A DNA stretch of 55,899 nucleotides, taken from the IMG/VR virus record IMGVR_UViG_3300032053_000095, positions 1 through 55,899 of that record; one strand, given 5' to 3'. Origin of the DNA: a virus. Taxonomy: Duplodnaviria; Caudoviricetes. The notes beneath the pieces are model-generated. The model saw nothing but the letters and a program-made list of their open reading frames with translations. It did no database searches and was not told where the DNA came from. The stretch's first letter is position 1. Every line of letters starts with the position of its first letter. Shown here piece after piece: positions 9,593 to 27,325 of the stretch. A program made the translations under genes and the position numbers.

Positions 9593-9848
9593 TTTCTATC
9601 CCTATAATTTTATTTAATTCTTCACCATTCAATCCAAAATATAATAATTTTCTATCACTATTCAAAAATTCTTTTATTTCATCTGGTAATTTCTTTTTAA
9701 ATTCATCTCTTGATTCAAGTATTTCTCCACAAATTCTTTTTTCTTCTGCTAACTTAGATGAATGATATTTACAAATTTCATCCATAATTTCCCTTGGATT
9801 ATTAGTTCCTTCATTTTTAACTAAAACTAATACTACTGAATATCCCAT
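9570..9848 (-). CDS. Hypothetical protein
   Basis: Start overlaps the portal stop codon. Confidence 0.5.
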   Translation of the reverse strand: MGYSVVLVLVKNEGTNNPREIMDEICKYHSSKLAEEKRICGEILESRDEFKKKLPDEIKEFLNSDRKLLYFGLNGEELNKIIGIENDKKANT

Positions 9849-11284
9849 TAAATTTCCTCCTCAGTTTTATTTTCAACTTTCTTTGGTCTATTTTTATTCA
9901 CATATAAATCTCTTAATTTTTCATCAACCTGTTCCGTAACAACGGCAGTTAAATCTTCCTCTTTCATTTCCATCCCTATATTTGAAAGAACATATCTATA
10001 AACTTCTGTCGCTAAACTTAAACTTATCCATTTTTCTTCTACTGCTGTCATTAAAGAAGTAGTCAAATTCACAAGAGAACCCGTTACTATTTCAAGTTCT
10101 TTTTCTTCTATCTTAGGCAAATTAATATTTACCTTAGTATTTTTTTTATCTAAAGTTAATATGCCTTTCGCTATCGCAGAATGAATTGAAAACCTAAACA
10201 TATAAGCAAGCATCCATTTAAAATATTTTTGCCTTGTCTTTAATTGCTTTTTTGTAGGTAAATCCATCGATACCGCCGTCGCTCTTGTTAAACCTTCCCC
10301 ACCTGCAAACCAATGCGGAGGAAATCCACCACCTGCAAGAATATGATTAAGTAAAACTTTTGCTCCAACTGTTACATCTGCCGAACCTAAATCAGGAACA
10401 GTAAAAGATAGTTTAGTCATTTGATTATGTCCGAATACTTCCATAGCATTAGGAACGTTAAATTTTTTCACTATCTCTTTTATTTCCTTTTCATCTTTTC
10501 CTTCAATTAGTAAATCAATAATTACCCTAGTAAGTAAATCAGATCTCTCTCCTACGTTATAAAGAAAATTCTCATAACTATCTATCTGGTCTGCAAGAGT
10601 AAATAAATCACTTCTTCCTCTTGGCTGATTGCAAACATTATTCACTGAAAAATAAAAACATCCTCCTTCAAGCATTTCATTGTCTTCATTAAGATTTATG
10701 ATTTTTATTTCTTTCCCAGAAGGATATTTACTTGAAGTAAATTTTACTGCTGTTTTCTTTTTAACATTATCTGGGTCTGTTAAAACATCATTAATCAAAG
10801 TCGGATCAAGGTAAAGCAATCTAACTCTCCCTGTCCCCTCTCCTATTTTTACCGGATAACATTGTTCTCCGTAAATAGATAATTCTCTGATTTCTTGATA
10901 TTGTGCTAACTCCATTTGGTTTACTTCATCAAGCCAAAAATCATCTATAATATCTTTAACTTTCGGATCACTACAACTATATGTAATCCCATCTCCCACA
11001 ACAAAATCAGTATATCTTTCAACTATCCTATGTGCAAGTCCATTCTTATCATAAAGCCAAAAACAAATCCTTAGCATCTTAGATTGGTCTAAAGGTTTTA
11101 AATCTTTTATATCTCTACCTGTCAAACCTCTATAACCATAATCCTCATTACTCCCACCTTCATTTGCTTGATAAGAAATTGCTCCCTCTTTTAATTTTGC
11201 AGAAAACTGCTTTTTTATTCCATCTGAAATCTCGCTACCTAAAACTAAATCCATGAACATATTTCTTAAACGGTTTTCTCCCAT
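9848..11284 (-). CDS. Portal protein
   Basis: 478 aa after TerL; LSIYGE, PRGRSDL, GGFPPHW, TRATA motifs. Confidence 0.88.
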   Translation of the reverse strand: MGENRLRNMFMDLVLGSEISDGIKKQFSAKLKEGAISYQANEGGSNEDYGYRGLTGRDIKDLKPLDQSKMLRICFWLYDKNGLAHRIVERYTDFVVGDGITYSCSDPKVKDIIDDFWLDEVNQMELAQYQEIRELSIYGEQCYPVKIGEGTGRVRLLYLDPTLINDVLTDPDNVKKKTAVKFTSSKYPSGKEIKIINLNEDNEMLEGGCFYFSVNNVCNQPRGRSDLFTLADQIDSYENFLYNVGERSDLLTRVIIDLLIEGKDEKEIKEIVKKFNVPNAMEVFGHNQMTKLSFTVPDLGSADVTVGAKVLLNHILAGGGFPPHWFAGGEGLTRATAVSMDLPTKKQLKTRQKYFKWMLAYMFRFSIHSAIAKGILTLDKKNTKVNINLPKIEEKELEIVTGSLVNLTTSLMTAVEEKWISLSLATEVYRYVLSNIGMEMKEEDLTAVVTEQVDEKLRDLYVNKNRPKKVENKTEEEI

Positions 11285-13098
11285 ATTCTTCTCCTTTTTT
11301 GTAAAATATTTCTTCCATCTCTTTTCTCTGAATCTCCTCCGCTAGTTCCAAACCCTGCTGAAATTCCTGTATCTTTATTTTGGCAATTCCATAAAATCCC
11401 TGCAACTACATCTAAGCAATCCTTACTTCCTCCTTGTGGGTGATCAATTTTATCCCCCACCATTTCAAGTTCCTTAGATTCTTTCTCTAATATATTTATA
11501 CCTTTTTTGTCAAGAACAATCGGGCATCTTAATTTATCCTGATATATATTATCTTTATATAAATCATATTGTTCTTTCCTTACATAAAGAATATCAACCT
11601 TTCTACCAGTTTTTTTTATCGCTTGAGTTAAATCAGCAATAGCCCAAATATCATAAGTAAAACATTCAATATCAAATCCTAAATCATAAATTGATAAAAC
11701 AAATTTCTTCACTTCTTCAACATCAACCTCTCCGAGTTGTTGAGTCGGCAACATTCTATAAATAAAATCTATTATCTTTTTCTCTCCTTCCCTGTGCCCC
11801 ATTCCAATCCAATATGCATCATGATTCAAAGACGGATCACCATGCATAAAATATTTTTTACTAGGAATAGGTTTAAAGGTTTCAGTAAATCTTCCAAATT
11901 CATCTATCGGATTCTTATAACCATCATTATTTGATTTCTCAAACATCTCATCTATCTTGTGTGGCATCCTAAAAAATCTACCTTTAGTAAATCCTAATAC
12001 GCAAGCTTTATCCCTTAAAAATCCTTCCGGATCTTTATCAAATTCATTCTTATGTTCAATAGGTATTTTTAAATTATTAAATAAGAAAAAATCAGATTCT
12101 AATGAACCTTCCTGATACATTTTATATCGCTCCTGTTGCATCTCCCATTCAGGAAGCCAAAATCCAAGCATGGTTGGAATGTCTTTACTTTTCATATATA
12201 AATCAACCATGTTTCCTTTCTCATTCACTAAACTTGAAATTGATGCTATATGCCCATCCTCTCTGAACGGATCCGTTGAACGGTTAAGAACTTTATAAAC
12301 TTCATCACCAGAATATTTTCCACCCCTTGTTTTAAATCTATCAAGTTCATCAAGCCCTACAAATTTTATAAGTTTTCCTGCGAGGGAAGATGAATTTGAA
12401 TGCCCTGATTTTATAATCGTATTAGTATCATTAAATCTAAAACTACTTCCTACCTCATAAGGATTTCTTCTCTTAAAATAAGATGAACGCATTATTGATG
12501 CTTTTATTTCAGCGAAAATAGTATCCCTTGCCTGCTCTTTATCTGTCGCTACATTCATAATATACATTTCTTTCCCTGGCGTAAAATTATATTTCTCCCA
12601 AGCCCTACCCATACTATATAATAAATACTCCTCTATTTGAGCGAAGATTGCAATAAGGGTTGTTTTTCCACCTTTCATCCCAACTATCAAAACAAGTTCC
12701 CTATATTTCCTCCCTTCCTGCCAAGTAGTTTTCCCTTCCGTCTGCCATTTCCAGATAATATTATGTTCTTCTACATTAAATGGTAATCCATAAAATGCTT
12801 TGAGTATCAACCTTTGAACCTTATTAGGTTTAACTTGTAAATATCTATCAACAAATTCTATCGGATTTAAAGTTTTATCTATTCGGCTTTCTTTCTCTAA
12901 ATTCAAGGAAGGGTCATCATTTTGTTTCTGCTTTATCTCTTTATCTTTTATAGTTCCTTTTATCCTTACTATCTGCCGTTCTGACATATTAAACTTTTCC
13001 GCCATATCAGCAATTCCATAACCGGCTTCCGCCATCTCTTTAATCTTTCCTCTTATTCTATTTATCTGTTTAGTGGTATGCCTAATTCGTTTTCTCAT
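11266..13098 (-). CDS. Terminase large subunit with N-terminal HTH
   Basis: Walker A GMKGGKTT, Walker B VGLDE, RNase H-like HGDPS..D and DHPQGGSKD. Confidence 0.92.
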   Translation of the reverse strand: MRKRIRHTTKQINRIRGKIKEMAEAGYGIADMAEKFNMSERQIVRIKGTIKDKEIKQKQNDDPSLNLEKESRIDKTLNPIEFVDRYLQVKPNKVQRLILKAFYGLPFNVEEHNIIWKWQTEGKTTWQEGRKYRELVLIVGMKGGKTTLIAIFAQIEEYLLYSMGRAWEKYNFTPGKEMYIMNVATDKEQARDTIFAEIKASIMRSSYFKRRNPYEVGSSFRFNDTNTIIKSGHSNSSSLAGKLIKFVGLDELDRFKTRGGKYSGDEVYKVLNRSTDPFREDGHIASISSLVNEKGNMVDLYMKSKDIPTMLGFWLPEWEMQQERYKMYQEGSLESDFFLFNNLKIPIEHKNEFDKDPEGFLRDKACVLGFTKGRFFRMPHKIDEMFEKSNNDGYKNPIDEFGRFTETFKPIPSKKYFMHGDPSLNHDAYWIGMGHREGEKKIIDFIYRMLPTQQLGEVDVEEVKKFVLSIYDLGFDIECFTYDIWAIADLTQAIKKTGRKVDILYVRKEQYDLYKDNIYQDKLRCPIVLDKKGINILEKESKELEMVGDKIDHPQGGSKDCLDVVAGILWNCQNKDTGISAGFGTSGGDSEKRDGRNILQKRRRIWEKTV

Positions 13099-14402: not shown

Positions 14403-14432
14403 AGAACCTCAAATTGTTATAATTATTTAAAA

Positions 14433-14820
14433 TGGAGCTGTGGGGAATCGAACCCCAGTCCGAAAGAATTAAACCGTAACATCTACCAAGATAACCCGCT
14501 TAATGACCGGGTAGTCAAACCCTCTTACGAGGGTGAGGGTGAAAGGGTTATTAAAGGTATCCCTTTCATTTCCACCATCCTGTTCGCTCTAACGTATAAG
14601 CCCAGGAACAGGCAACGATGTTACTTATACGCTTTAAAGCAAACTACCTTGTTAGGCAGCCACCGGAACTTCTATCGGTGAAACTGCGTTTACAATCTCG
14701 TTTGCCCTGTCAAGTATATTCTTGGCAGTTACGTTGTGGTCGGATTTTTAGGTAGCCATCTGACCAACTACCCTTGGCAGTTACGAGTTCGCGTTCAATC
14801 GTCGAACCCTGTTCAGCCCC
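14433..14820 (-). ncRNA. ssrA: tmRNA, one-piece, ~388 nt
   Basis: 5' GGGGCTGAACAGGGTTCGAC; 3' GGACTGGGGTTCGATTCCCCACAGCTCCA (T arm, Ala acceptor with G3-U); pseudoknot 1; tag ORF 14726-14652; CCA not fully encoded. Confidence 0.95.
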
Positions 14821-18793: not shown

Positions 18794-19492
18794 TCATTTT
18801 AAAATCCTCTGCAAATTAGATTTCTGCTTAATCACTATTTTATTTTCAGTTAAAATCTTTATAAGTTCCAATATCTTTTCTTTTGAAGGTTCAGGCAAAT
18901 GACAACCCTTACTATCTGCTCCTATGTTTACGAAATCTGGATGAGCATCTACAATCCATACGGATAATACATCTATATTAAATTCCATTATCGGCTCAAT
19001 AGTAACAAAAGTTTTTACCCCTATACTTTTAAATTTCCTTATTCCTAAATATCTTTCACCAGGAGCGGGAGCAGAAGAAATTTCCGGGTAATAAATATCA
19101 GATTCTATCGTGGTTCCCATAATGAAATCTTTGGGAAAATAACTGCCTATCTCCCATAAATTAAAAGCCTTATTAGGATTCTTAGTTTGAAACACATAAG
19201 TATTATTCGGATATTCCTTACAATGAGATAAAATTTTCTGTATCCAAGAATATTTAATACTTTCAGCAAATAAATCATTCATATGTTCTATAAATATAGA
19301 TTTTCCGCTTCCATAATTTACGTTTAATTCATCTTCTTTTAATCTTGGCTCTCCCTTATATCTCGGACTAACTCCGAACCTATTTTTCTGAACGTAACAG
19401 TATTTACATTTATGTGAACATTCTCCTGCTAAATGGCTGTGAGTAGATGTTACCCAATCATACATATTCCCTGCTGATTTGTTTAACGGCAT
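18794..19492 (-). CDS. Radical SAM protein (DUF5131 / phage Gp37-Gp68-like)
   Basis: CSHKCKYC motif, MNDLF, FQTKNP, TIEP, IGADS. Confidence 0.85.
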   Translation of the reverse strand: MPLNKSAGNMYDWVTSTHSHLAGECSHKCKYCYVQKNRFGVSPRYKGEPRLKEDELNVNYGSGKSIFIEHMNDLFAESIKYSWIQKILSHCKEYPNNTYVFQTKNPNKAFNLWEIGSYFPKDFIMGTTIESDIYYPEISSAPAPGERYLGIRKFKSIGVKTFVTIEPIMEFNIDVLSVWIVDAHPDFVNIGADSKGCHLPEPSKEKILELIKILTENKIVIKQKSNLQRILK

Positions 19493-19797
19493 TTTATTTC
19501 CTCCTTTCTATAATATCCTTTCTTAGTATGAATTCTGGGATTCTGGAATATTTTTTCAAGATTTTTTAAATCTATATTCCTTCTATATAATTGAGTTTTA
19601 CCTTTGATTGGATGATTTATAGCAGTTGAAATTGTCATCGTAGTAGTATAAATATTTATTCTTTGATTTTCCTTTTTAAAAGATAACATATATAAGTTAG
19701 GTGTATATAATTTATTCCAACCATTATCTAATCCTATTTTAATAATTTCATTAATTACTTTAATTTGATTATCTGATAATTTTTCAAGCATTTTCAT
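19483..19797 (-). CDS. Conserved hypothetical phage protein
   Basis: RINIY..HP.KGKTQLYRR..IFQNPRIHT.KGY. Confidence 0.65.
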   Translation of the reverse strand: MKMLEKLSDNQIKVINEIIKIGLDNGWNKLYTPNLYMLSFKKENQRINIYTTTMTISTAINHPIKGKTQLYRRNIDLKNLEKIFQNPRIHTKKGYYRKEEIKCR

Positions 19798-20617
19798 TCA
19801 CCTTAAATAAACTTTCTGAACATATTTTGTTCCAATCACAATACTTGCATACTCTTTCACTCTTTGACCTTAGTTGAGTTCCTTCTTCAATTCTTTGCTT
19901 GACATCAAACGCAAACGTAAGCCACTCTTTTACCTTCGCTTGATTATAAACAATAGAAAACGGAGTAACAACTACCGCATGGCAAACATTAAACTTGAAC
20001 CCTAAAATATTATAACCTTCATTTTTCATACAATAAGGATATATAATCGCTTGTGCTTCTTTTTCAGCTTCTTCCTGTGTCCAATCAGAGCTTGAAGTTT
20101 TGTGATCTATTATCCACATAGAACGATCAATAACATCGACCTTCCCTGTTATCCCTAATTTCCTTTCTCCATAAGTAATATGAACACAGAAAAACTTTTC
20201 TATAAATTCTTGCCCCAAAGGATAAATCATAGGAAGTGCTTTTTGAAAATATATTCTTATATAATTCTCACACTTCAAATGCGCCTTATTTTCAGCTAAT
20301 CTTGAAAAATCCGTATTCTGCTTTTCCCTTCCCCATATAGCGTTAAACATTTTTTCTATATCATTCCATCCGTAATGAATACCTCTCTTTACGAAAAATC
20401 TTAAATCCTGTTCTATAACTTCATGGAAGCAACTCCCAATCATGAGATAAACTGATTTAGTAGTTATTTTTGGTTGCGTATATTTCCATACTAATTTCCA
20501 TTCGCATTCCTTCGCCATCATTATGTCTGTCGCGCTCATTTGTAAAATATTATCACTATAAACATGAACCCGTTTATTGAAATCCCAAAATTTAAACCTT
20601 CCTTGTTGATTTTCCAT
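19784..20617 (-). CDS. Cas4/RecB-like PD-(D/E)XK exonuclease
   Basis: G..FH, GKVD..IIDHKTS, Q...Y; 1+3 Cys pattern (CEWK...CKYCDWNKIC). Confidence 0.85.
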   Translation of the reverse strand: MENQQGRFKFWDFNKRVHVYSDNILQMSATDIMMAKECEWKLVWKYTQPKITTKSVYLMIGSCFHEVIEQDLRFFVKRGIHYGWNDIEKMFNAIWGREKQNTDFSRLAENKAHLKCENYIRIYFQKALPMIYPLGQEFIEKFFCVHITYGERKLGITGKVDVIDRSMWIIDHKTSSSDWTQEEAEKEAQAIIYPYCMKNEGYNILGFKFNVCHAVVVTPFSIVYNQAKVKEWLTFAFDVKQRIEEGTQLRSKSERVCKYCDWNKICSESLFKVNENA

Positions 20618-20637
20618 TTTTTCTCCTAAATAATAAC

Positions 20638-20823
20638 CTAGATTATTTTATTTTTTTCTTCCCTATCTATTTCAATAGAATATCCACAATTCAAACAAGT
20701 TTTAATATTTATATACATATCTTCTGATTCACAATGATCAATTCTCCATTCATTTTTCTTACATTTATGACAATATTCTTTTATATTTTTCTTAAATTTT
20801 AATTTTTCACAAATCTTCGACAT
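20638..20823 (-). CDS. Small zinc-ribbon protein
   Basis: CHKC...CLNCG. Confidence 0.5.
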   Translation of the reverse strand: MSKICEKLKFKKNIKEYCHKCKKNEWRIDHCESEDMYINIKTCLNCGYSIEIDREEKNKII

Positions 20824-21973
20824 TTATATCCTCCTCAACTATAATTCCTTCTTTCTCCCTTATCTTTTTAATTATATTTTCATAAACATTATTCGCGATA
20901 GCTCTCATAAACAAAGGAGGAACAGCCCTTCCGCATCTTTCCCATTGTTGATTGAAATCTCCTGTTAAAATAAAATCATCAGGGAAAGAACAAACCCTTT
21001 TTATTTCCTTAATAGTTAATCTCCTATTTTCATCTGGGTAAATGCAAGCACATCCTCCAGTATGCCCATGGCTTTGTAAAACAGTATTACATTCTTTATC
21101 CCATTCCAATCTAGTAAGAGAAAAATATGAACCCTTCGGATGATATTTACTACCTGATTCACCAGGTTTTAATTGAATAACATATTTATAAGTTTCATAT
21201 CCTTCCGTTAAACCTTTCTTAGATTCTTCAATATCTTTTTCTGAATTTTCAACTCCTTCTAATGCTTCTCTCACTGTTACTCTTTTAGTAATCCAAGGCA
21301 AAGGAAATGACGGAGCTATTTCTAAATCTTGCCTTACTCCTATAATAATTAGTCTTGATCTCCTTTGAGGAACTCCGAAATCCCTAGCATTTAAAATATG
21401 ATATTGAACCCTATATCCACATTGTTCAAAATGATATAAAAATGTTTTCTCATGTTCTCCGAATAAATCATTCTGTTTAGTTCCTAATAAGTTTAATGCT
21501 CCCCCTAAAGTTAAACCTTCTACATTTTCAGCCACGAATACTTTCGGTTGTATCTCATTTAAAATCCTTATGAACTCAAAAAATAAATCATCAGTTCTCT
21601 GTTCCGTATCAGAATATTTTTTAACCTTTCCCCATCCTTTTTCTCTTTTACCAGAAATAGAAAAACTCGCGCAAGGTGGCGAACCGTCAAGCAAATCAAG
21701 TTCTCCTTTCTTTAATCCTACTTTATCTAAAATAATTTGACCGGTTAATTCTCTAATATCTTCAGGAAATATAATAGTATTAGGATAATTCACTTTATAA
21801 GTTTCAATAGCAGCAGGAATAAATTCATTTATAGCTAATATATTTGCTCCTGCTAATCTATAACCAGTAGAACTCCCTCCGCATCCTGCGAAAGTAGATA
21901 CTACCGTAAATAATTTCCTTTTCTCACTTTCATAAACATCTTTCATTTTAGGTAAGGTTTCAAAATATTTCAT
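20807..21973 (-). CDS. DNA cytosine-C5 methyltransferase-family enzyme, probable carboxymethyltransferase
   Basis: Motifs I FAGCGG, IV GSPPC, VI ENV, VIII QRRSR; motif X reads GRAVPP instead of GNAVPP. Confidence 0.92.
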   Translation of the reverse strand: MKYFETLPKMKDVYESEKRKLFTVVSTFAGCGGSSTGYRLAGANILAINEFIPAAIETYKVNYPNTIIFPEDIRELTGQIILDKVGLKKGELDLLDGSPPCASFSISGKREKGWGKVKKYSDTEQRTDDLFFEFIRILNEIQPKVFVAENVEGLTLGGALNLLGTKQNDLFGEHEKTFLYHFEQCGYRVQYHILNARDFGVPQRRSRLIIIGVRQDLEIAPSFPLPWITKRVTVREALEGVENSEKDIEESKKGLTEGYETYKYVIQLKPGESGSKYHPKGSYFSLTRLEWDKECNTVLQSHGHTGGCACIYPDENRRLTIKEIKRVCSFPDDFILTGDFNQQWERCGRAVPPLFMRAIANNVYENIIKKIREKEGIIVEEDINVEDL

Positions 21974-21974
21974 T

Positions 21975-22415
21975 TTAATTTTCCTTTAAAAATTCCGTAA
22001 CTTTTCTTTTTATTTCAACATCTTTTCCGTTTATACTTATATTTATTCCTGAAGGATGAGGGATGCTTAATTTTTCAATCTTCCATGGTAAATATCTCAA
22101 ATATTTTCCTATTAGATTTTGAGAAAATTTCCCAACCATAATAACTTTTTCATACTTACCTTGAATTATTCTTTTTATTACATAATCTCTTAATCCAAAA
22201 ATGGTTTCTTTTTTAACAGGAACTATATCACCTTTTCCATTTCTTCCCATATAATAAGGAATGGCATGAATAGTATCAACTAATTCCGCAAGTTCTTCTT
22301 GGCTGTTTACTCTGAACCATTTCCAAAGTCTTTTAGATGAATTCCCTCCATTCCAAGGAATCCTTGTTACTGAACTTTTCGCTGGTGCTTGCCCTATCAC
22401 TAAAATACTATTCAT
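21975..22415 (-). CDS. Uracil-DNA glycosylase superfamily protein
   Basis: ILVIGQAP and IPHPSG motifs. Confidence 0.8.
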   Translation of the reverse strand: MNSILVIGQAPAKSSVTRIPWNGGNSSKRLWKWFRVNSQEELAELVDTIHAIPYYMGRNGKGDIVPVKKETIFGLRDYVIKRIIQGKYEKVIMVGKFSQNLIGKYLRYLPWKIEKLSIPHPSGINISINGKDVEIKRKVTEFLKEN

Positions 22416-23274
22416 TTGGTTCTTCCCCTCCTCCTATTAATAATTGAACTGGTTTATTAACTTTCCAATATATATCCCTATATAAATCAATTACTCTCTG
22501 CCTTCCTTTTTTATTTATTTCAGGATTTTTTAATAAAGGTTCAAATATTTCCCTTATTCCTGAATCCCCACCTTGTAAATTCATCCTTTTAAAAAGATTA
22601 ATCTTAGAAAAATATTCAGGAAACATATCAAGTAGTGCTTGTTTTTGAATAGGTTTATTTATTTCTTCCCAAGTTTTATTAAAAAACCATTTTATTACCT
22701 CTTTACCAACAAATGGATCATAAGTTTTATTATCAGAATTATTAGAAAGTTTCTTAAATATTCCATTATGTATTCTCAAACTATCATAACTCAATATCGT
22801 TTCCTCTTTTCTATATTCTTGTAAATCTTTTAAATTCTTTGCATGATGAATTAATCCATGCTTAGTCAAACAAAAATGGTCATCGGAAGCAAGCCCGATT
22901 AACAAAAGATTTTCTTTCACTTTTGGATAAAGGAAATAATAAGGATAAAAACATTCAACCCTTGTCTTTCTCCAAGTCTTAAATTCCTTTATGAAACTAC
23001 GAACGATATTTATATCCACTATTTTAGGAATGATACATTCAATAAATTCAATTTTAAAAATATCACAATTCCTTTTAGCATTAATATAATCCTGGCTTTC
23101 AATACCTTCCACATGGAAATTATAAGCCCTAACCTTTTTCTTTAATTCCAATAAAGCAAATAATATAGAATTACTATCCTTGCCAGATGATAATGCTATC
23201 GCAATATTATCATATCCTTTAGTAATATTAGATACTTCTTTTAAAAATATTTCTCTTAGTTTTATTTGATGCAT
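22408..23274 (-). CDS. Asparagine-synthetase C-terminal-like PP-loop ATP-dependent amide ligase (no glutaminase domain)
   Basis: IALSSGKDS PP-loop; GLASD; YDPF; QK..L; LQGG. Confidence 0.8.
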   Translation of the reverse strand: MHQIKLREIFLKEVSNITKGYDNIAIALSSGKDSNSILFALLELKKKVRAYNFHVEGIESQDYINAKRNCDIFKIEFIECIIPKIVDINIVRSFIKEFKTWRKTRVECFYPYYFLYPKVKENLLLIGLASDDHFCLTKHGLIHHAKNLKDLQEYRKEETILSYDSLRIHNGIFKKLSNNSDNKTYDPFVGKEVIKWFFNKTWEEINKPIQKQALLDMFPEYFSKINLFKRMNLQGGDSGIREIFEPLLKNPEINKKGRQRVIDLYRDIYWKVNKPVQLLIGGGEEPNE

Positions 23275-23900
23275 AAAAACGCCTCAAAATTAAAGTATTT
23301 AAAAAACCTCTCTATTTTTTTAAATCCCACTTTCATTAAAAGCTCTTCATTTTCCTTGCTAGTATTAGGTTTCAAAATTTCCCTTAATGAATCCTCCTTA
23401 TCCAAAATTTCAGTTCCGGTAAATGAATTCCTTTTATAATCATAATAAGAAAAAGTAAAGATTTCCTGAAACTGTCCGAATTCGGAATAAGTCTTTTCAG
23501 CGATAATTAAAGCCCCACCAGGATTAAGCCCATTATAAATATCAGTCAAAAGTTGATACCTGCTTTTTTTCTTTAAAAATTGGAGAATAAATATTGAATA
23601 GATAATAGAAGCATTTTTAAACTCAAAACTATCATTTAAATCTGTACAAATCCATTCAATCCCATTCTTACTTTCTGGCAATAAATTCCTACTATTATCA
23701 ATCCCAACTTTCTTGCAATCAAATTTTATTGATTTTAAGAGCTTCCCGGTAGAACACCCTATATCATAAATGGTCATATTCTTATCATAAAAATACTTTG
23801 AAATACAAAGGATACTATTGAATAAAATATCATAGTTAGGAATGGAAGCCAAAATATGCTTATCAAAATCCTGAATCGTATTAAAACTAAACCTTTTCAT
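23262..23900 (-). CDS. cmoA: CmoA-like carboxy-S-adenosylmethionine synthase
   Basis: FDKHILASIPNY, YDIGCSTG, FILQF, LNPGGALIIAEK, FKYFNF parallel CmoA motifs. Confidence 0.8.
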   Translation of the reverse strand: MKRFSFNTIQDFDKHILASIPNYDILFNSILCISKYFYDKNMTIYDIGCSTGKLLKSIKFDCKKVGIDNSRNLLPESKNGIEWICTDLNDSFEFKNASIIYSIFILQFLKKKSRYQLLTDIYNGLNPGGALIIAEKTYSEFGQFQEIFTFSYYDYKRNSFTGTEILDKEDSLREILKPNTSKENEELLMKVGFKKIERFFKYFNFEAFLCIK

Positions 23901-24041
23901 GAACCCTCCTATCCTTATTTAAAGCCCTATCTAGTGCTCCCTAGTGGTCATTCTAGCCCTTAAACCCTATATAAAGGAAATCTCTTATTATATATAATTC
24001 TATTCTTTTTTATAAGTAAATTCTTATGTCCCATTTTTGGT

Positions 24042-24370
24042 TGTAAAGTGGTTTTTACTCTCAAAAACCTTCATTTTAAGCTTTTCTACTTTACATACTT
24101 TACAGAAATTGTTTAAAATTTTTAACCTATTCAAAAATAGATTCATTTAAACCTATTATATATATATATGTAAAGTGTAAAGTATAAAATATATAAGGTC
24201 GTACGAGGAAACTTTGATTTTTAAATTTCTCACTTTCTCTCCCTCTCTCTATATATATACATTCCTAGCCACTTTACAACTTTACACCCTACTTGTAAAC
24301 AACTTTTTTGATAATTTATATACAAATTGTATGTCAATGTAAACAAAAAGCTGTAAAAACCAGTAAAGTA
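24042..24370. other. Putative replication origin with iterons
   Basis: Seven exact ACTTTACA/TGTAAAGT octamers in both orientations around (TA)n tracts, just downstream of the primase-helicase. Confidence 0.75.
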
Positions 24371-24387
24371 TAAAATCAAAATCTTCA

Positions 24388-24558
24388 TTATTTTGTATCC
24401 TTTCTTGTTAATTTCAATCCTTGCTTTACATAAAATCTTTGAAATAAACCCTTTTTTGTATCATAGGTTTCTTTAAGATATTCCAAAAATGCTTCCCTGT
24501 CCTCTTTTAAATGAAAAACTGCAATCAAGTCAACCCCGTTTTTAATCCCATATTTCAT
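24388..24558 (-). CDS. Small hypothetical protein (56 aa, not in ORF track)
   Basis: AGGAGG SD; MKYGIKNGVDLIAVFHLKEDREAF... Confidence 0.5.
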   Translation of the reverse strand: MKYGIKNGVDLIAVFHLKEDREAFLEYLKETYDTKKGLFQRFYVKQGLKLTRKDTK

Positions 24559-24568
24559 AAATCCTCCT

Positions 24569-27325
24569 TTATAAATCCCCTAAATCCTGCCCATCATCTT
24601 CCTTTTTTGTCTTTTCTACCTCAAAAACGTTCTTTAGGATTTCCGGGGTAAGCTCATTATTGAGGTCAAAAAGCCATCTACCTGCAACCGTACCCTTAAC
24701 CCTCGTGGTGTCCCAACCCAAGCAATAGGGTTCTTGCTTCAGGATTTTGGCAACCTCTCTACTACTTGGAAGTTCATATTTACGGGTTACTGATTCCCCA
24801 TTTATCTTTCCTAAGAGCATCGGAAGGTGAATTTCAAGTTGATGTATTTCCTTAAAATCCCTATCGGCAGTCCTATGAAAAGCTACTTGTTCATCAAGTT
24901 TCCCTGATTTATGGAGAATATCCAAACCCTCCCAAAGTAACCCTATAATTTCCTCTTGTTTTTGCTGTTCAATTTCATAGTTAGCAAGTTTTATAGCAAA
25001 CCCACATATCTTATCTTTTTGGCTTTCAAAATATGGTTCAGTAAGTGCTCCGGCTACCGCTACCGCCCAAACTTGTGCTTGCCTTGGAGATGCTATTTCT
25101 TGCTTAAATTTAGCAGCTATCTCCTTATATTTAGCCATGAATTCAGGAAATAGGGGTATTCTATTCTTTACCCAATTAAACCCTATTTTGGCTAGTTCCG
25201 GCTCTAATCTAAGTATATCCTCATAATACTTGTCATTCCGTTCTTGTTGAGTTATTTCAAAGGTTACGAGTCTTGAATTAAGCCCTGAATCATTCGTAGC
25301 AGTTTCACCATCAACTATCAAACAACCCCTTACCGCAACCTGTCTTATTTTTAAAGCATCATTCTTAATACCTTTTGAAGCAGAAGAACGGTCAAAAATA
25401 TTCCTAAAAAATCCATGGAATTTCTGCCCCTCTCCTTCCCTATTTCTATAATCATCCGCCCAAACAGGCAAACTTGAATAATAAGCTAATCTCCTTTCAA
25501 TCCCAACTCCAGTGGTTCCACCTTCCCTTAAAGAGATCGCTTTTACTCCTTCAAGTCCAATCATATTCATAAGCCAGCCACACATTATGGATTTCCCACT
25601 TTCTTTTTTACCATGAATCATAAGAATAGGAAAAAACTTATTTTTCTCAAAAAACATCTTGCTCCATAAACAAGATTTTAACCATCCTATCGCTATCGCC
25701 ATTTTAAGATTTCTATTTTTTATAAGCAATTTAAAAATATCTTCCTTGAAATTTTCAATACCTCCTACTGATTCAGTAAGCGGAAAATAAGGAATTTCTG
25801 ACCTTACTCCTGCTTGAGTAGTAAGTGCTGGAATTTTAATTGAATCCTTTTCATTCAAAGTAAGATACCCATCTTTAAGCGGAACAATTTCACCAGTATT
25901 AGCAACGAATATATTATCAGCGATAAATCCTTCATCAATTTCCCCTACACATTCAACCTCTCTTACGATTTTAGGTTTATAAGCAACTCCCCAGAATTGA
26001 ACCAGAGAATTTAAATCATTATCATTCCCTTGAAAAAGACAAGTTTCATTGCAGTTATTTAATAAAAACTCTTTTAATTTTCCAGAATTACTTAAAACCG
26101 TTCCATCCATAAATACTGTATTCTCAAGTTGCCCGTGTTTTATTTTTACTTTCCTTACCCTTAGTTCCTCATTTTGAATAATAATCGCTTCAACTTTCCC
26201 TATCCAATTTGTAAGTTTAATTTCCATTTCTTTATCATGTACGAATTTTGAAATATAATAACCATCCGGTTTCTCCCTAATCAAACTTTGCATTTCAGGA
26301 GAAGGTCTATCAGCTTTAATCTGTAATCCTTCAAAAATTTCCTTTCCGTTTTCTTCATCCCTTATGGTTTCATCTATATCTATTTTATCAGGAGGGAATT
26401 TCATAACAAAAATATCACAATTACTAAAATTTTTCGCTAATCTTTCTGTATCTCTTTTCCCTTCAAAATCAGCATCAAAACAACTATATAATGTAATGAG
26501 TTCAAAGGTTTTTAGATAATCAATCTGCTCTTTAGTCAAAGTTCCTACTGAACCTGCCGCATTAACTCCGATATCCCAAAGTGAAACTACATCATCTTCA
26601 CCTTCAACTGTTACTAAATCAACTCCGTTTTTAATAATATCTTGATTATACCAAACTGAATCCTGTATTCTAACATTCTTAGGCATTTGTTGTTTTTTTA
26701 ATTTATTCGGATCTTTATTTCTAAAATAACTTATCTGACCATTTACTACAAAAGGATATGTAAAAGAACCTTCGGGAACAAGAGTTAATCCGCTCGCTTT
26801 CACTAAATCTTTATCATATAAAGCATTAATTCTTTCTATTAAAGTTCCATCATTAAATCCGATTTTAAAATGAGTAATGGCTTCATAGGAATGCTTGCGA
26901 TATTCAAGTAGATAATTCAAAGGATTTATTTTTAGTCCACGCCATTGATATATAGTCTGGCAAGTAAATAATATATCTTGTGCTATTTCACAATAATCTT
27001 GTCGCATTGAATAATAATCAACTTCTGATTTCTCAAATTTCTTGATTTTTAAATCTTCCGCAAATTTACTAATTGATGCTCTATAAGAAGAAAGTTTATC
27101 ATATTGTTTTCTAAACTGGATTAAATCTCCGATGAAGGTTTGACATTGGAAACAGAAATATTTATCATCTTGGCTTAATCTCGCACATTCATGCCCTCCG
27201 CAAAAACAACATTCAGGTAGATTTTTCCATAACCCTATCGCTTTAAATTGTTGCTCCGTTCTTTGTTCAATATAACTTTCAAGTGTTTGCGAAGATTTTA
27301 TTTTTTCTATAATAGATTGTTGCAT
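24569..27325 (-). CDS. Primase-helicase (Zn finger + TOPRIM + P-loop helicase)
   Basis: CCFCGGH..CFQC; VEGEDD..CFDADFEG; GKKESGKS Walker A, WADD Walker B, NSR Arg finger. Confidence 0.9.
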   Translation of the reverse strand: MQQSIIEKIKSSQTLESYIEQRTEQQFKAIGLWKNLPECCFCGGHECARLSQDDKYFCFQCQTFIGDLIQFRKQYDKLSSYRASISKFAEDLKIKKFEKSEVDYYSMRQDYCEIAQDILFTCQTIYQWRGLKINPLNYLLEYRKHSYEAITHFKIGFNDGTLIERINALYDKDLVKASGLTLVPEGSFTYPFVVNGQISYFRNKDPNKLKKQQMPKNVRIQDSVWYNQDIIKNGVDLVTVEGEDDVVSLWDIGVNAAGSVGTLTKEQIDYLKTFELITLYSCFDADFEGKRDTERLAKNFSNCDIFVMKFPPDKIDIDETIRDEENGKEIFEGLQIKADRPSPEMQSLIREKPDGYYISKFVHDKEMEIKLTNWIGKVEAIIIQNEELRVRKVKIKHGQLENTVFMDGTVLSNSGKLKEFLLNNCNETCLFQGNDNDLNSLVQFWGVAYKPKIVREVECVGEIDEGFIADNIFVANTGEIVPLKDGYLTLNEKDSIKIPALTTQAGVRSEIPYFPLTESVGGIENFKEDIFKLLIKNRNLKMAIAIGWLKSCLWSKMFFEKNKFFPILMIHGKKESGKSIMCGWLMNMIGLEGVKAISLREGGTTGVGIERRLAYYSSLPVWADDYRNREGEGQKFHGFFRNIFDRSSASKGIKNDALKIRQVAVRGCLIVDGETATNDSGLNSRLVTFEITQQERNDKYYEDILRLEPELAKIGFNWVKNRIPLFPEFMAKYKEIAAKFKQEIASPRQAQVWAVAVAGALTEPYFESQKDKICGFAIKLANYEIEQQKQEEIIGLLWEGLDILHKSGKLDEQVAFHRTADRDFKEIHQLEIHLPMLLGKINGESVTRKYELPSSREVAKILKQEPYCLGWDTTRVKGTVAGRWLFDLNNELTPEILKNVFEVEKTKKEDDGQDLGDL

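What the first reader, a model, noticed from the sequence alone, without database searches (positions are those of the whole stretch)
20807..23900. Four-gene carboxy-SAM DNA hypermodification cluster (CmoA-like + amide ligase + UDG-like + variant C5 methyltransferase)
Seen: four abutting or overlapping genes next to the origin; the methyltransferase motif X reads WERCGRAVPP instead of the canonical G-N-A/S-V. Established: CmoA makes carboxy-SAM from SAM and prephenate; an Asn-to-basic substitution at this position (engineered M.MpeI N374K) turns a C5 methyltransferase into a carboxymethyltransferase; PP-loop AsnB-like domains adenylate carboxylates and form amides. Inference: the phage installs 5-carboxymethylcytosine and then amidates it with an amine or amino acid as anti-restriction armour. 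I recall a related phage pathway being reported recently, so novelty needs a literature check.
Basis: partly seen in the sequence, partly recalled or inferred. Interest (0 to 1): 0.88.

Follow-up and report, generated by a model that had tools for sequence, protein, structure and literature searches.

The report
Phage carboxymethyl-cytosine operon with extra UDG-fold gene
This phage carries the recently published three-enzyme pathway that puts a carboxymethyl group on DNA cytosine and then caps it with an amide, plus a small glycosylase-like gene inside the operon that turns out to be a recurring, so far undescribed companion of such DNA-modification genes.

Summary
Yang et al. 2025 (PMC12783734) showed CmoA/CmoX/CmoY of Synechococcus phage S-B43 making 5cxmC and then its glycine amide. 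The window proteins are 38/44/32% identical to those enzymes, in the same order. The best PDB hit of the methyltransferase is SpCmoX (8yf3, E 6.7e-83), and R349 aligns with the Cx-SAM-binding R350. The core is therefore a new member of a known system.

The new part is the UDG-fold gene, which the main text of that paper does not mention. It belongs to a small phage family (53 hits among 1.84 billion representatives). Of 46 viral loci that carry it:
- 15 have it embedded in cmoX/cmoA clusters;
- 2 have it beside Asn-type C5-methyltransferases;
- 15 have it beside TAGT glycosyltransferases.

Natural fusions exist with CmoX, CmoA, CmoY and TAGT. Its role is inferred, not shown. My best guess is a quality-control glycosylase for uracil or deaminated products. 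It is optional: 0 of 31 other cmoX loci have it.

The parts
23262..23900 (-). cmoA-like carboxy-SAM synthase (212 aa)
   Evidence: TIGR00740 9.2e-40, 136.8 bits. The validated SpCmoA scores lower on the same model, 115.6 bits. 38% identical to SpCmoA over 227 columns, E 5e-48. PDB hits 1im8 and 4gek (CmoA) at E 3.7e-27 and 2.3e-25. E. coli cofactor residues Y39, D62, G64, S66 and F137 are invariant in alignment A8.
22408..23274 (-). cmoY-like ATP-dependent amide ligase, short form without a glutaminase domain (288 aa)
   Evidence: 32% identical to SpCmoY, E 2e-38. tblastn hits the S-B43 'putative asparagine synthase'. PP-loop LSSGKDS, with S29, G31 and S34 invariant in 20 homologues. No GATase domain, unlike the long forms in L013, L051 and L068.
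21975..22415 (-). mini UDG-fold protein (146 aa), accessory gene embedded in the operon
   Evidence: PF03167 2.8e-7. AlphaFold model from a 51-row alignment, pLDDT 94.2. Foldseek hits 3ikb 9.3e-7, SMUG1 1.6e-5, UdgX, family-4 UDG, MUG and TDG. The family recurs inside cmo clusters and occurs as fusions.
20807..21973 (-). cmoX, DNA cytosine C5-carboxymethyltransferase homologue (388 aa)
   Evidence: PDB 8yf3_A (SpCmoX) E 6.7e-83; next best is M.HaeIII at 2.6e-24. 44% identity to SpCmoX (171/387). GSPPC catalytic Cys is present, and R349 aligns with SpCmoX R350.
20638..20823 (-). 61-aa CxxC...CxxC ORF overlapping the cmoX 3' end by 17 nt; membership of the system is uncertain
   Evidence: coordinates and sequence. 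No Pfam hit. No tblastn match in L001-L008.
24042..24286 (.). cluster of 7 TGTAAAGT repeats around a (TA)n tract, upstream of cmoA; candidate origin or operator

Best explanation
The region is one operon for post-replicative cytosine hypermodification of the phage's own DNA. It is a member of the CmoA-CmoX-CmoY system described in Synechococcus phage S-B43.

Step 1 (inferred from homology to a tested enzyme): CmoA converts SAM plus host prephenate into carboxy-SAM.

Step 2 (inferred from homology plus the conserved Cys and Arg): CmoX attacks cytosine C6 with the SPPC cysteine and transfers the carboxymethyl group of Cx-SAM to C5. R349 holds the cofactor carboxylate. The product is 5-carboxymethylcytosine.

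Step 3 (inferred): the PP-loop ligase CmoY adenylates that carboxylate and joins it to an amine. It has no glutaminase domain, so the amine is a free amine or amino acid (glycine in S-B43) and not glutamine-derived ammonia.

Step 4 (the least certain): the 146-aa UDG-fold protein encoded between cmoY and cmoX is an optional fourth component. It keeps the base-flipping pocket of family-4-type uracil-DNA glycosylases. My preferred reading (about 0.4 on its own) is a small quality-control glycosylase. It would remove uracil or deaminated carboxymethyl-pyrimidine from sites where a covalent C5-transferase intermediate, starved of a scarce cofactor, deaminates its target. This is analogous to UDG domains attached to polymerases of thymidine-hypermodifying phages.

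The modified DNA is expected to resist host restriction.
For: Core pathway:
- The gene order cmoA-cmoY-cmoX is the same as in S-B43.
- Identities to the tested enzymes are 38%, 32% and 44%.
- The best solved structure for the methyltransferase is SpCmoX itself (E 6.7e-83, against 2.6e-24 for HaeIII).
- GSPPC is present and R349 aligns with R350. In the paper R350 contacts the carboxymethyl group, and wild-type SpCmoX accepts only Cx-SAM.
- All 31 of 31 independent cmoX loci from viral contigs carry G-R-[AS]-V-P. 30 of 31 have cmoA and 21 of 31 have a ligase within the held flanks.
- The CmoA-like protein outscores the validated SpCmoA on TIGR00740 (136.8 vs 115.6 bits) and shares its KExxLR segment.
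- The ligase PP-loop is intact.

UDG-fold component:
- The model is confident (pLDDT 94.2) and has a UDG-superfamily fold.
- The family profile aligns GQAP, the aromatic residue, Asn and HPS with the corresponding family-4 UDG motifs.
- 15 of 46 unique viral loci with this family have it inside a cmoX/cmoA cluster, 8 with a ligase and 7 without.
- 2 of 46 have it directly after an Asn-type C5-methyltransferase, with no cmoA in the record.
- Natural fusions exist: CmoX::UDG (P0072), UDG::CmoA (P0070) and CmoY::UDG (L044-L046, three contigs).
- Precedent for a UDG serving hypermodified phage genomes: PMC13697223 (passages).
Against: - Nothing was assayed, so every step is by homology.
- The record is an estimated 52% complete fragment of an uncultured phage with no close cultured relative. 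Host and prephenate supply are unknown, and no chorismate mutase is present in the record.
- TIGR00740 and PF00733 scores are below the curated cutoffs.
- The E. coli CmoA Arg199 column is Glu here, although it is also Glu in the active SpCmoA.
- The ligase is only 32% identical to SpCmoY (E 2e-38). That is weaker than the 1e-56 edge threshold of the paper's network, so the amine cannot be assigned.

Against the quality-control reading of the UDG-fold protein:
- Motif A is GQAPA, with no acidic residue.
- The uracil-reading Asn is His49 in this protein. It is Asn in all 45 locus rows that cover the column.
- 0 of 31 other cmoX loci have the gene, and none of those 31 records has any PF03167 match. 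It is therefore not needed by the pathway.
- 15 of 46 loci pair it with a TAGT glycosyltransferase instead, with no C5-methyltransferase. That pairing fits a more general role with modification enzymes.
Confidence: 0.8

Rival explanations
1. The UDG-fold protein is not a repair glycosylase. It is a base-flipping or binding subunit that works with the modification enzymes, presenting or holding the flipped C5-modified pyrimidine for CmoY or CmoX (and for TAGT in other phages), with little or no hydrolytic activity.
For: It occurs fused to enzymes of three different chemistries that act in the same pathway or on DNA: CmoX, CmoY and TAGT, and also to CmoA. It is always embedded between cmo genes and not at the cluster edge. 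Motif A lacks the Asp/Glu of families 1 and 4 in most members (GQAP). The window protein has His in place of the uracil-reading Asn.
Against: SpCmoX and SpCmoY work alone in vitro and in E. coli. 0 of 31 other cmoX loci carry it. Fusion to CmoA, which does not touch DNA, shows that fusions can reflect mere adjacency. Some members read GEAP, as in active family-4 enzymes (L051, L053, L054, L058). The invariant PHPSG.N motif looks like a preserved catalytic pocket.
Confidence: 0.25
2. The UDG-fold gene is an ordinary small phage uracil-DNA glycosylase of the replication module. It lies inside this operon by chance or by loose modular linkage, with no functional tie to carboxymethylation.
For: 14 of 46 loci have neither a C5-methyltransferase nor TAGT nearby. 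Only 2 of 29 records without a nearby C5-methyltransferase have PF00145 anywhere, and 1 of 12 among records at least 90% complete. cmo-linked members are scattered through the family tree and do not form one clade.
Against: A third of loci (15 of 46) are cmo-linked. The paper found 5,615 CmoX candidates in all its databases, and the viral collection holds 2.9 million contigs (tool description), so I estimate a base rate well under 1%. The gene sits between cmo genes in all 15 cases. In-frame fusions with each of the three Cmo proteins exist.
Confidence: 0.15
3. The UDG-fold protein protects or edits the modification. Either it is an inert decoy that shields 5cxmC from host MUG/TDG-like glycosylases before amidation, or it is an eraser that excises carboxymethylated bases placed in the wrong context or on host DNA.
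For: Host MUG is reported to excise carboxylated or formylated pyrimidines in E. coli (PMC13229309, passage). Foldseek also lists TDG bound to 5caC and SMUG1 among the structural neighbours. The His49 substitution could fit a non-uracil ligand (inference).
Against: There is no direct evidence. The family also occurs in phages with no C5-methyltransferase. Most members keep the uracil-type Asn.
Confidence: 0.1
4. The cluster does not carboxymethylate DNA. The methyltransferase makes plain 5mC, and the CmoA-like enzyme serves tRNA cmo5U modification or depletes SAM.
For: CmoA homologues normally act in tRNA modification, and the CmoA score is below the equivalog cutoff. The paper raises SAM depletion as a possible side role.
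Against: No CmoB-type partner is adjacent. Arg replaces the canonical Asn of motif X. Wild-type SpCmoX could not use SAM, and its R350N mutant used neither cofactor. cmoA is linked to Arg-type enzymes in 30 of 31 loci. The two Asn-type relatives found (L065, L074) lack cmoA in their records.
Confidence: 0.04

Closest known systems
CmoA-CmoX-CmoY of Synechococcus phage S-B43 (Yang et al., Nat Commun 2025, PMC12783734; PDB 8YF3)
   Same: Same three enzyme families in the same order. SPPC Cys and the Cx-SAM-binding Arg are conserved. The ligase is the short form without a glutaminase domain. The CmoA has the same KExxLR variant.
   Different: Identity is only 32-44%. The host phage is an unrelated low-GC (about 31%) uncultured phage. 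An extra UDG-fold gene lies between cmoY and cmoX, which S-B43 lacks. The amine substrate and DNA target motif are unknown here.
Engineered M.MpeI N374K carboxymethyltransferase
   Same: A basic residue at the motif-X Asn position enables use of Cx-SAM, as cited in the paper's Discussion.
   Different: That enzyme is an engineered Lys variant of a CpG methyltransferase. This one is a natural Arg enzyme of the CmoX family.
Family-4 UDG, UdgX, SMUG1 and the uncharacterised S. mutans protein 3IKB (UDG superfamily)
   Same: Same fold. Profile alignment of GxxP, the aromatic residue, Asn and HPS motifs to 1ui0, 1l9g and 3ikb.
   Different: Only 146 aa. It has no cysteines, so it cannot hold the Fe-S cluster that I recall for family 4. 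Motif A is GQAPA, not GE(A/G)PG. It has family-specific KGD and PHPSG.N...N motifs. His49 sits at the Asn column in this member.
UDG domains fused to SP15-like DNA polymerases of thymidine-hypermodifying phages (PMC13697223)
   Same: A UDG-superfamily module is physically coupled to the machinery of a hypermodified phage genome. The published rationale is removal of dU that the modification pathway cannot handle (passages).
   Different: In that case the partner is a polymerase, the modification is on thymidine and the domain is a demonstrably active UDG. Here the partners are cytosine carboxymethylation enzymes (or TAGT) and activity is untested.
Dcm-Vsr pairing in E. coli (recalled, not checked here)
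   Same: A C5-cytosine transferase is co-encoded, with overlapping genes, with an enzyme that repairs the deamination product of its own target.
   Different: Vsr is an endonuclease for T:G mismatches, not a UDG-fold protein. The analogy is conceptual only.

Membership tests
CmoX (DNA cytosine C5-carboxymethyltransferase) | C5-methyltransferase fold with the SPPC catalytic cysteine motif | tested here: met
   PF00145 7.4e-58. GSPPCASFS aligns with SpCmoX S95-C98.
CmoX (DNA cytosine C5-carboxymethyltransferase) | Arg at the SpCmoX R350 position (motif X Asn of ordinary C5-methyltransferases) | tested here: met
   ERCGRAVPP aligns with ERVGRMVPP, so R349 corresponds to R350. HaeIII has GNAVP in the same alignment.
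CmoX (DNA cytosine C5-carboxymethyltransferase) | Genomic linkage to a phage cmoA | tested here: met
   cmoA lies two genes upstream in the same operon. The same linkage holds in 30 of 31 related loci.
CmoX (DNA cytosine C5-carboxymethyltransferase) | Cx-SAM-dependent formation of 5cxmC in DNA | not testable with these tools
   Needs LC-MS of nucleosides.
CmoA (carboxy-SAM synthase) | Sequence membership of TIGR00740 above the trusted cutoff | tested here: not met
   136.8 bits against a cutoff of 193.3. The biochemically active SpCmoA scores 115.6, so the cutoff excludes the phage clade as a whole.
CmoA (carboxy-SAM synthase) | Arg199 (E. coli) salt bridge to the cofactor carboxylate (PMC3663124, passages) | tested here: inconclusive
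   In alignment A8 the R199 column is Glu in the window, SpCmoA and L003. An Arg sits four residues later (KExxLR against E. coli KRxxLE). L004, L044 and L053 keep KR. This may be a helix-face swap, and SpCmoA with the same pattern is active.
CmoA (carboxy-SAM synthase) | SAM-moiety binding residues Y39, D62, G64, S66, F137 | tested here: met
   These are invariant columns in A8.
CmoY (5cxmC amide ligase) | Homology to SpCmoY with an intact PP-loop ATP-pyrophosphatase motif | tested here: met
   E 2e-38, 32% identity. LSSGKDS with S29, G31 and S34 invariant.
CmoY (5cxmC amide ligase) | Residues that bind the glycine carboxylate (paper's Supplementary Fig. 8) | not tested
UDG superfamily, family-4-like | UDG alpha/beta fold | tested here: met
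   Model pLDDT 94.2. Foldseek probability 1.00 to 3ikb, SMUG1, UdgX, 4zbx and MUG.
UDG superfamily, family-4-like | Motif A with an acidic or polar catalytic residue (GE(A/G)PG, GQDPY, GINPG; motif strings recalled) | tested here: not met
   The window reads IGQAPA. Most relatives read GQAP and a few read GEAP.
UDG superfamily, family-4-like | Asn that reads the uracil Watson-Crick edge | tested here: not met
   His49 in the window protein. Asn in all 45 locus rows covering the column. H/Y/N in the closest relatives P0002-P0005.
UDG superfamily, family-4-like | Motif B His (HPS) | tested here: met
   IPHPSG; H120, P121 and G123 are invariant in 51 sequences.
UDG superfamily, family-4-like | Four-Cys Fe-S cluster (recalled feature of families 4 and 5) | tested here: not met
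   The 146-aa sequence has no cysteine.

The most novel reading that the evidence does not exclude
The mini-UDG is a dedicated, previously unrecognised fourth module of phage pyrimidine-C5 hypermodification systems. It would be a stripped-down UDG fold that no longer polices plain uracil but acts on flipped C5-modified pyrimidines (5cxmC, its deaminated form, or the substrate of TAGT glycosyltransferases). It would act either as a proofreading glycosylase specific for the modified lesion or as an obligatory base-flipping partner. This would explain why it is fused in nature to CmoX, CmoA, CmoY and TAGT.
Probability: 0.35. Interest if true: 0.7.

Novelty: new variant of a known kind. Interest (0 to 1): 0.5.

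Why it matters
The core result is confirmatory. It extends the newly described 5-carboxymethylcytosine / amide hypermodification pathway to a low-GC uncultured phage lineage that is unrelated to the cyanophage in which it was found. It also shows that the sequence rule (SPPC plus motif-X Arg plus adjacent cmoA) identifies the system reliably.

The added value is the UDG-fold gene. A small, phage-restricted branch of the UDG superfamily is repeatedly embedded in, and sometimes fused to, enzymes that hypermodify pyrimidine C5. If it is a lesion-specific glycosylase, it would be the first repair or quality-control activity dedicated to a hypermodified base pathway on cytosine. If it is a base-flipping partner, it would be a new use of the UDG fold. 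Either way it is a compact, expressible protein with clear assays, and it may affect how 5cxmC chemistry can be used as a DNA-labelling tool.

Tried and rejected
- A single-sequence AlphaFold run of the UDG-like protein gave an unusable model (pLDDT 35.0). I replaced it with the alignment-based run.
- The UDG-like protein has no tblastn match in the 50,697 cultured-phage records. It has no close relative by word-indexed search (only itself) or by single-sequence pattern scan of viral contigs. Relatives appeared only with the exhaustive HMMER scan.
- I first labelled the largest neighbour cluster of the UDG family 'DNA polymerase A', from one 1210-aa representative. Scanning the other 23 members showed TAGT in 11 and ParB_N in 4, so I dropped the PolA label.
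- The aGPT-Pplase analogy (a glycosylase fold reused for hypermodification chemistry) was checked. Those enzymes are described as helix-hairpin-helix, not UDG fold (PMC8989533, passages), so the analogy is only conceptual.
- A complex prediction of the window CmoY with the UDG-fold protein returned 'no answer'. I draw nothing from it.
- The promoter and terminator scan of 20400-24600 gave counts no higher than shuffles (25 vs 23.4; 3 vs 1.4).
- TET/JBP (PF12851) in the 15 TAGT-linked records gave 0 of 15, but the control rang nowhere, so this is uninformative.
- Thymidylate-synthase family: 0 of 15, with controls ringing in 10 of 14.
- TAGT, ParB_N and chorismate mutase are absent from the window record, which is about 52% complete.
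- The tree's built-in group test compared only the CmoX and N-MT labels and is not informative. I use only the topology. One row under 100 aa (L077) and three exact duplicates were left out.
- One literature search was mis-specified (min_terms 1) and returned nothing useful.
- Iyer et al. 2013 (PMC3763556), which defined TAGT and might mention UDG neighbours, is not held. My statement that the UDG link is unreported rests only, on listings and passages. The supplements of PMC12783734 could not be seen.

Full report
**What is there.** Between 20807 and 23900 the minus strand carries four tightly packed ORFs:
- 23900..23262, 212 aa;
- 23274..22408, 288 aa (13-nt overlap with the first);
- 22415..21975, 146 aa (8-nt overlap);
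- 21973..20807, 388 aa (1-nt gap).

A 61-aa CxxC...CxxC ORF (20823..20638) overlaps the last gene by 17 nt. Family scans give, in order:
- a class-I methyltransferase whose best curated model is CmoA (TIGR00740, 9.2e-40, 136.8 bits, cutoff 193.3);
- a weak Asn_synthase / PP-loop match (PF00733, 8.6e-4, 19.5 bits against a cutoff of 21);
- UDG superfamily (PF03167, 2.8e-7, 31.2 bits against a cutoff of 24.3);
- C5 DNA methyltransferase (PF00145, 7.4e-58).

**It is the published Cmo pathway.** A literature search found Yang et al., Nat Commun 2025 (PMC12783734). I read its abstract, all of Results and the Discussion. Supplements were closed. The paper shows the following for Synechococcus phage S-B43:
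- CmoA makes Cx-SAM from SAM and prephenate.
- The C5-methyltransferase homologue CmoX makes 5-carboxymethylcytosine at GC sites, using only Cx-SAM.
- R350 contacts the carboxymethyl group (PDB 8YF3), and R350N is dead.
- The asparagine-synthetase homologue CmoY ligates glycine in an ATP-dependent way.
- Native phage DNA contains the glycine amide.

The S-B43 genes lie in the order cmoA-cmoY-cmoX. The window proteins are 38% (E 5e-48), 32% (E 2e-38) and 44% (E 2e-101) identical to them. Against the whole PDB, the methyltransferase's best hit is 8yf3_A at 6.7e-83; the next is M.HaeIII at 2.6e-24. GSPPC aligns with S95-C98, and R349 aligns with R350.

Among 31 other cmoX loci pulled from viral contigs with the window protein:
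- 31 of 31 have G-R-[AS]-V-P;
- 30 of 31 have cmoA;
- 21 of 31 have a ligase within the held flanks.

**Checks on CmoA and CmoY.** The CmoA score is below the equivalog cutoff, but the biochemically active SpCmoA scores even lower (115.6 bits). E. coli CmoA binds the cofactor carboxylate with Arg199 (PMC3663124, passages). I aligned E. coli CmoA (fetched) with phage CmoAs. The Arg199 column is Glu in the window protein, in SpCmoA and in L003. An Arg sits four residues later (KExxLR against KRxxLE). Other phage CmoAs (L004, L044, L053) keep KR. The window protein thus shares the variant of the validated phage enzyme. Y39, D62, G64, S66 and F137 are invariant.

The ligase has the PP-loop LSSGKDS (S29, G31 and S34 invariant among 20 homologues) and no glutaminase domain. 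Long-form ligases in other cmo loci do have one. [quoted passage not shown] At E 2e-38 to SpCmoY, the window enzyme is below that paper's 1e-56 network threshold. The amine is therefore open.

**The extra gene.** S-B43 has nothing between cmoY and cmoX, and the paper's main text has no occurrence of 'glycosylase' or 'UDG'.

How rare the 146-aa protein is:
- No match in 50,697 cultured-phage records.
- Only itself in the word-indexed protein search.
- 53 hits at E<=1e-3 among 1.84 billion representatives, nearly all 120-200 aa.

What the family looks like:
- An alignment of 51 of these hits has invariant G95, H120, P121 and G123. G8, N50, P119, S122, N125 and N129 are nearly invariant.
- The motifs are GQAP, an aromatic residue after Pro, Asn, KGD and PHPSG.N...N.
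- With that alignment AlphaFold gives pLDDT 94.2.
- Foldseek finds only UDG-superfamily structures: 3ikb (9.3e-7), SMUG1, UdgX, family-4 UDG, MUG and TDG.
- The family profile aligns with family-4 UDGs so that GQAP matches GEGPG, the Asn matches their conserved Asn, and PHP matches their FHP.

The window member differs from classical UDGs in three ways:
- There is no acidic residue in motif A.
- His49 sits at the Asn column. All 45 locus rows that cover the column have Asn. The closest relatives have N, Y, H and Y.
- It has no cysteine.

**Genomic company of the mini-UDG family.** Pattern scans with four sub-alignments gave 46 unique viral contigs after removing five repeat fetches. I then ran HMM and jackhmmer scans of six-frame ORFs. 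The loci divide as follows:
- 15 loci have the gene inside a cmoX(Arg)+cmoA cluster, 8 with a ligase and 7 without. Typical orders are cmoX-UDG-cmoA or cmoX-cmoY-UDG-cmoA. Of the loci I checked for GC, these ranged from 47% to 66%.
- 2 loci (L065, L074) have it directly after a close CmoX relative that keeps the canonical Asn (QQWHRLGNAVPP). No cmoA is present anywhere in those records.
- 15 other loci have a TAGT-family glycosyltransferase (PF20691) within 6 kb, mostly within 1 kb.
- 14 have none of these.

Of the 36 loci with at least 3 kb on both sides, 16 have a C5-methyltransferase.

In the opposite direction, 0 of 31 cmoX loci found with the CmoX query contain the mini-UDG. None of those 31 records has any PF03167 match (only 3 of them are at least 90% complete).

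Of the 29 mini-UDG records without a nearby C5-methyltransferase, 2 have PF00145 anywhere, and 1 of the 12 that are at least 90% complete does.

In a maximum-likelihood tree of 43 rows, cmo-linked members are scattered. The window pairs with L003 inside a well-supported clade with five unlinked rows. L008 groups with L064/L066, and L051/L054 group with L076.

**Fusions.** In three contigs (L044-L046) a single 417-aa ORF is CmoY followed by the mini-UDG (PF00733 on the N-terminal part; family HMM 8e-36). A search for longer proteins with the family profile gave:
- P0072 (688 aa): an Arg-type CmoX followed by the UDG domain;
- P0070 (382 aa): the UDG domain followed by a CmoA;
- P0066 and P0071 (513 aa): TAGT followed by the UDG domain;
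- P0069 (446 aa): a sigma-70 fusion;
- P0067, P0068 and P0073: partners with no assigned domain;
- P0074 (392 aa): a different methyltransferase with a more canonical UDG domain.

The fusion order matches the usual gene order.

**Reading.** The linkage is far above any plausible base rate. The paper counts 5,615 CmoX candidates in all its databases. The association is optional, polyphyletic and not specific to the carboxymethyl group or to the ligase. It extends to Asn-type C5-methyltransferases and to a glycosyltransferase family.

I therefore favour an autonomous small glycosylase that phages attach to pyrimidine-C5 modification modules as quality control. It would remove uracil or deaminated product, which covalent C5-transferase chemistry promotes when cofactor is short. 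That last point is established for C5-methyltransferases from memory, not from a call here. A similar rationale is published for UDG domains on polymerases of thymidine-hypermodifying phages (PMC13697223, passages).

The missing acidic residue, His49 and the fusions keep a non-hydrolytic base-flipping partner as a serious rival. A shielding or erasing role cannot be excluded.

**Surroundings.**
- The record equals the window: a 55,899-base IMG/VR virus record, about 52% complete.
- All sizeable genes are on the minus strand.
- Downstream of the operon lie a Cas4-like PD-(D/E)XK nuclease, DUF5131 and a RecT-like protein.
- Upstream lies a 918-aa primase-like protein whose best cultured-phage matches are only 24% identical.
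- The intergenic gap upstream of cmoA holds 7 of 10 TGTAAAGT copies.

**Verdict.** The core is a new member of a system published in December 2025. The embedded, recurrent and sometimes fused mini-UDG makes this a new variant and gives a concrete, testable lead.

Noticed in passing
window 14430-14820 (-): The phage record encodes a full-length tmRNA (Rfam RF00023, 89.3 bits, model positions 1-374 of 374). ARAGORN gives the tag peptide AKNILDRANEIVNAVSPIEVPVAA.
   Followed up: partly
window 24042-24286: Seven exact TGTAAAGT copies lie in tandem doublets of both orientations around a (TA)n tract, between cmoA and the primase-like gene. The whole window has only 10 copies (2.41 expected). This may be an origin or an operator.
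   Followed up: partly
L040-L043, L048, L049, L052, L058, L059, L070, L071, L075, L080, L083, L084; P0066, P0071: The mini-UDG family is paired with, and twice fused to, TAGT (TET-associated glycosyltransferase, PF20691). None of these 15 records has a thymidylate-synthase-family hydroxymethylase (0 of 15) or a TET/JBP match (control uninformative), and only L071's record has a C5-methyltransferase match. What TAGT glycosylates there is unexplained. L058 encodes a 1210-aa protein with TAGT at the N-terminus and DNA polymerase A at the C-terminus.
   Followed up: partly
L065:4271-6004 and L074:4009-5964: These are close relatives of CmoX that keep the canonical motif-X Asn (GNAVPP / GNSVP). Each is directly followed by a mini-UDG, and neither record has cmoA. 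They may be natural Asn/Arg counterparts for studying cofactor switching.
   Followed up: partly
window 23262-23900; alignment A8: Phage CmoAs come in two forms at the E. coli Arg199 site: KRxxLE as in E. coli (L004, L044, L053) and KExxLR (window, S-B43, L003). The second form looks like an Arg/Glu swap one helical turn apart.
   Followed up: partly
whole window: GGCC occurs 5 times. I calculate about 36 expected from the base frequencies printed. GATC (47) and AGCT (59) are also low against about 156 expected, while CCGG (101) is high. C is 21.5% and G is 11.9% on the plus strand, because nearly all genes are on the minus strand.
   Followed up: no
window 4127-6652 (-): An 841-aa protein matches both head-maturation protease and major-head PHROGs, which suggests a fused protease-capsid gene. 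Portal (9848-11284) and large terminase (11266-13098) lie next to it.
   Followed up: no
window 18794-20617 (-): Directly downstream of the cmo operon lie a Cas4-like PD-(D/E)XK nuclease (277 aa), a 104-aa ORF and a DUF5131 protein (232 aa with a CxxxCxxC-like motif), followed by a RecT-like annealase. This is a recombination module, not obviously part of the modification system.
   Followed up: no
P0073 (518 aa): A mini-UDG domain (residues 290-431) is fused to a 280-aa N-terminal domain with no Pfam hit. From memory its motifs resemble DpdA/TGT-like DNA transglycosylases. This was not tested.
   Followed up: no
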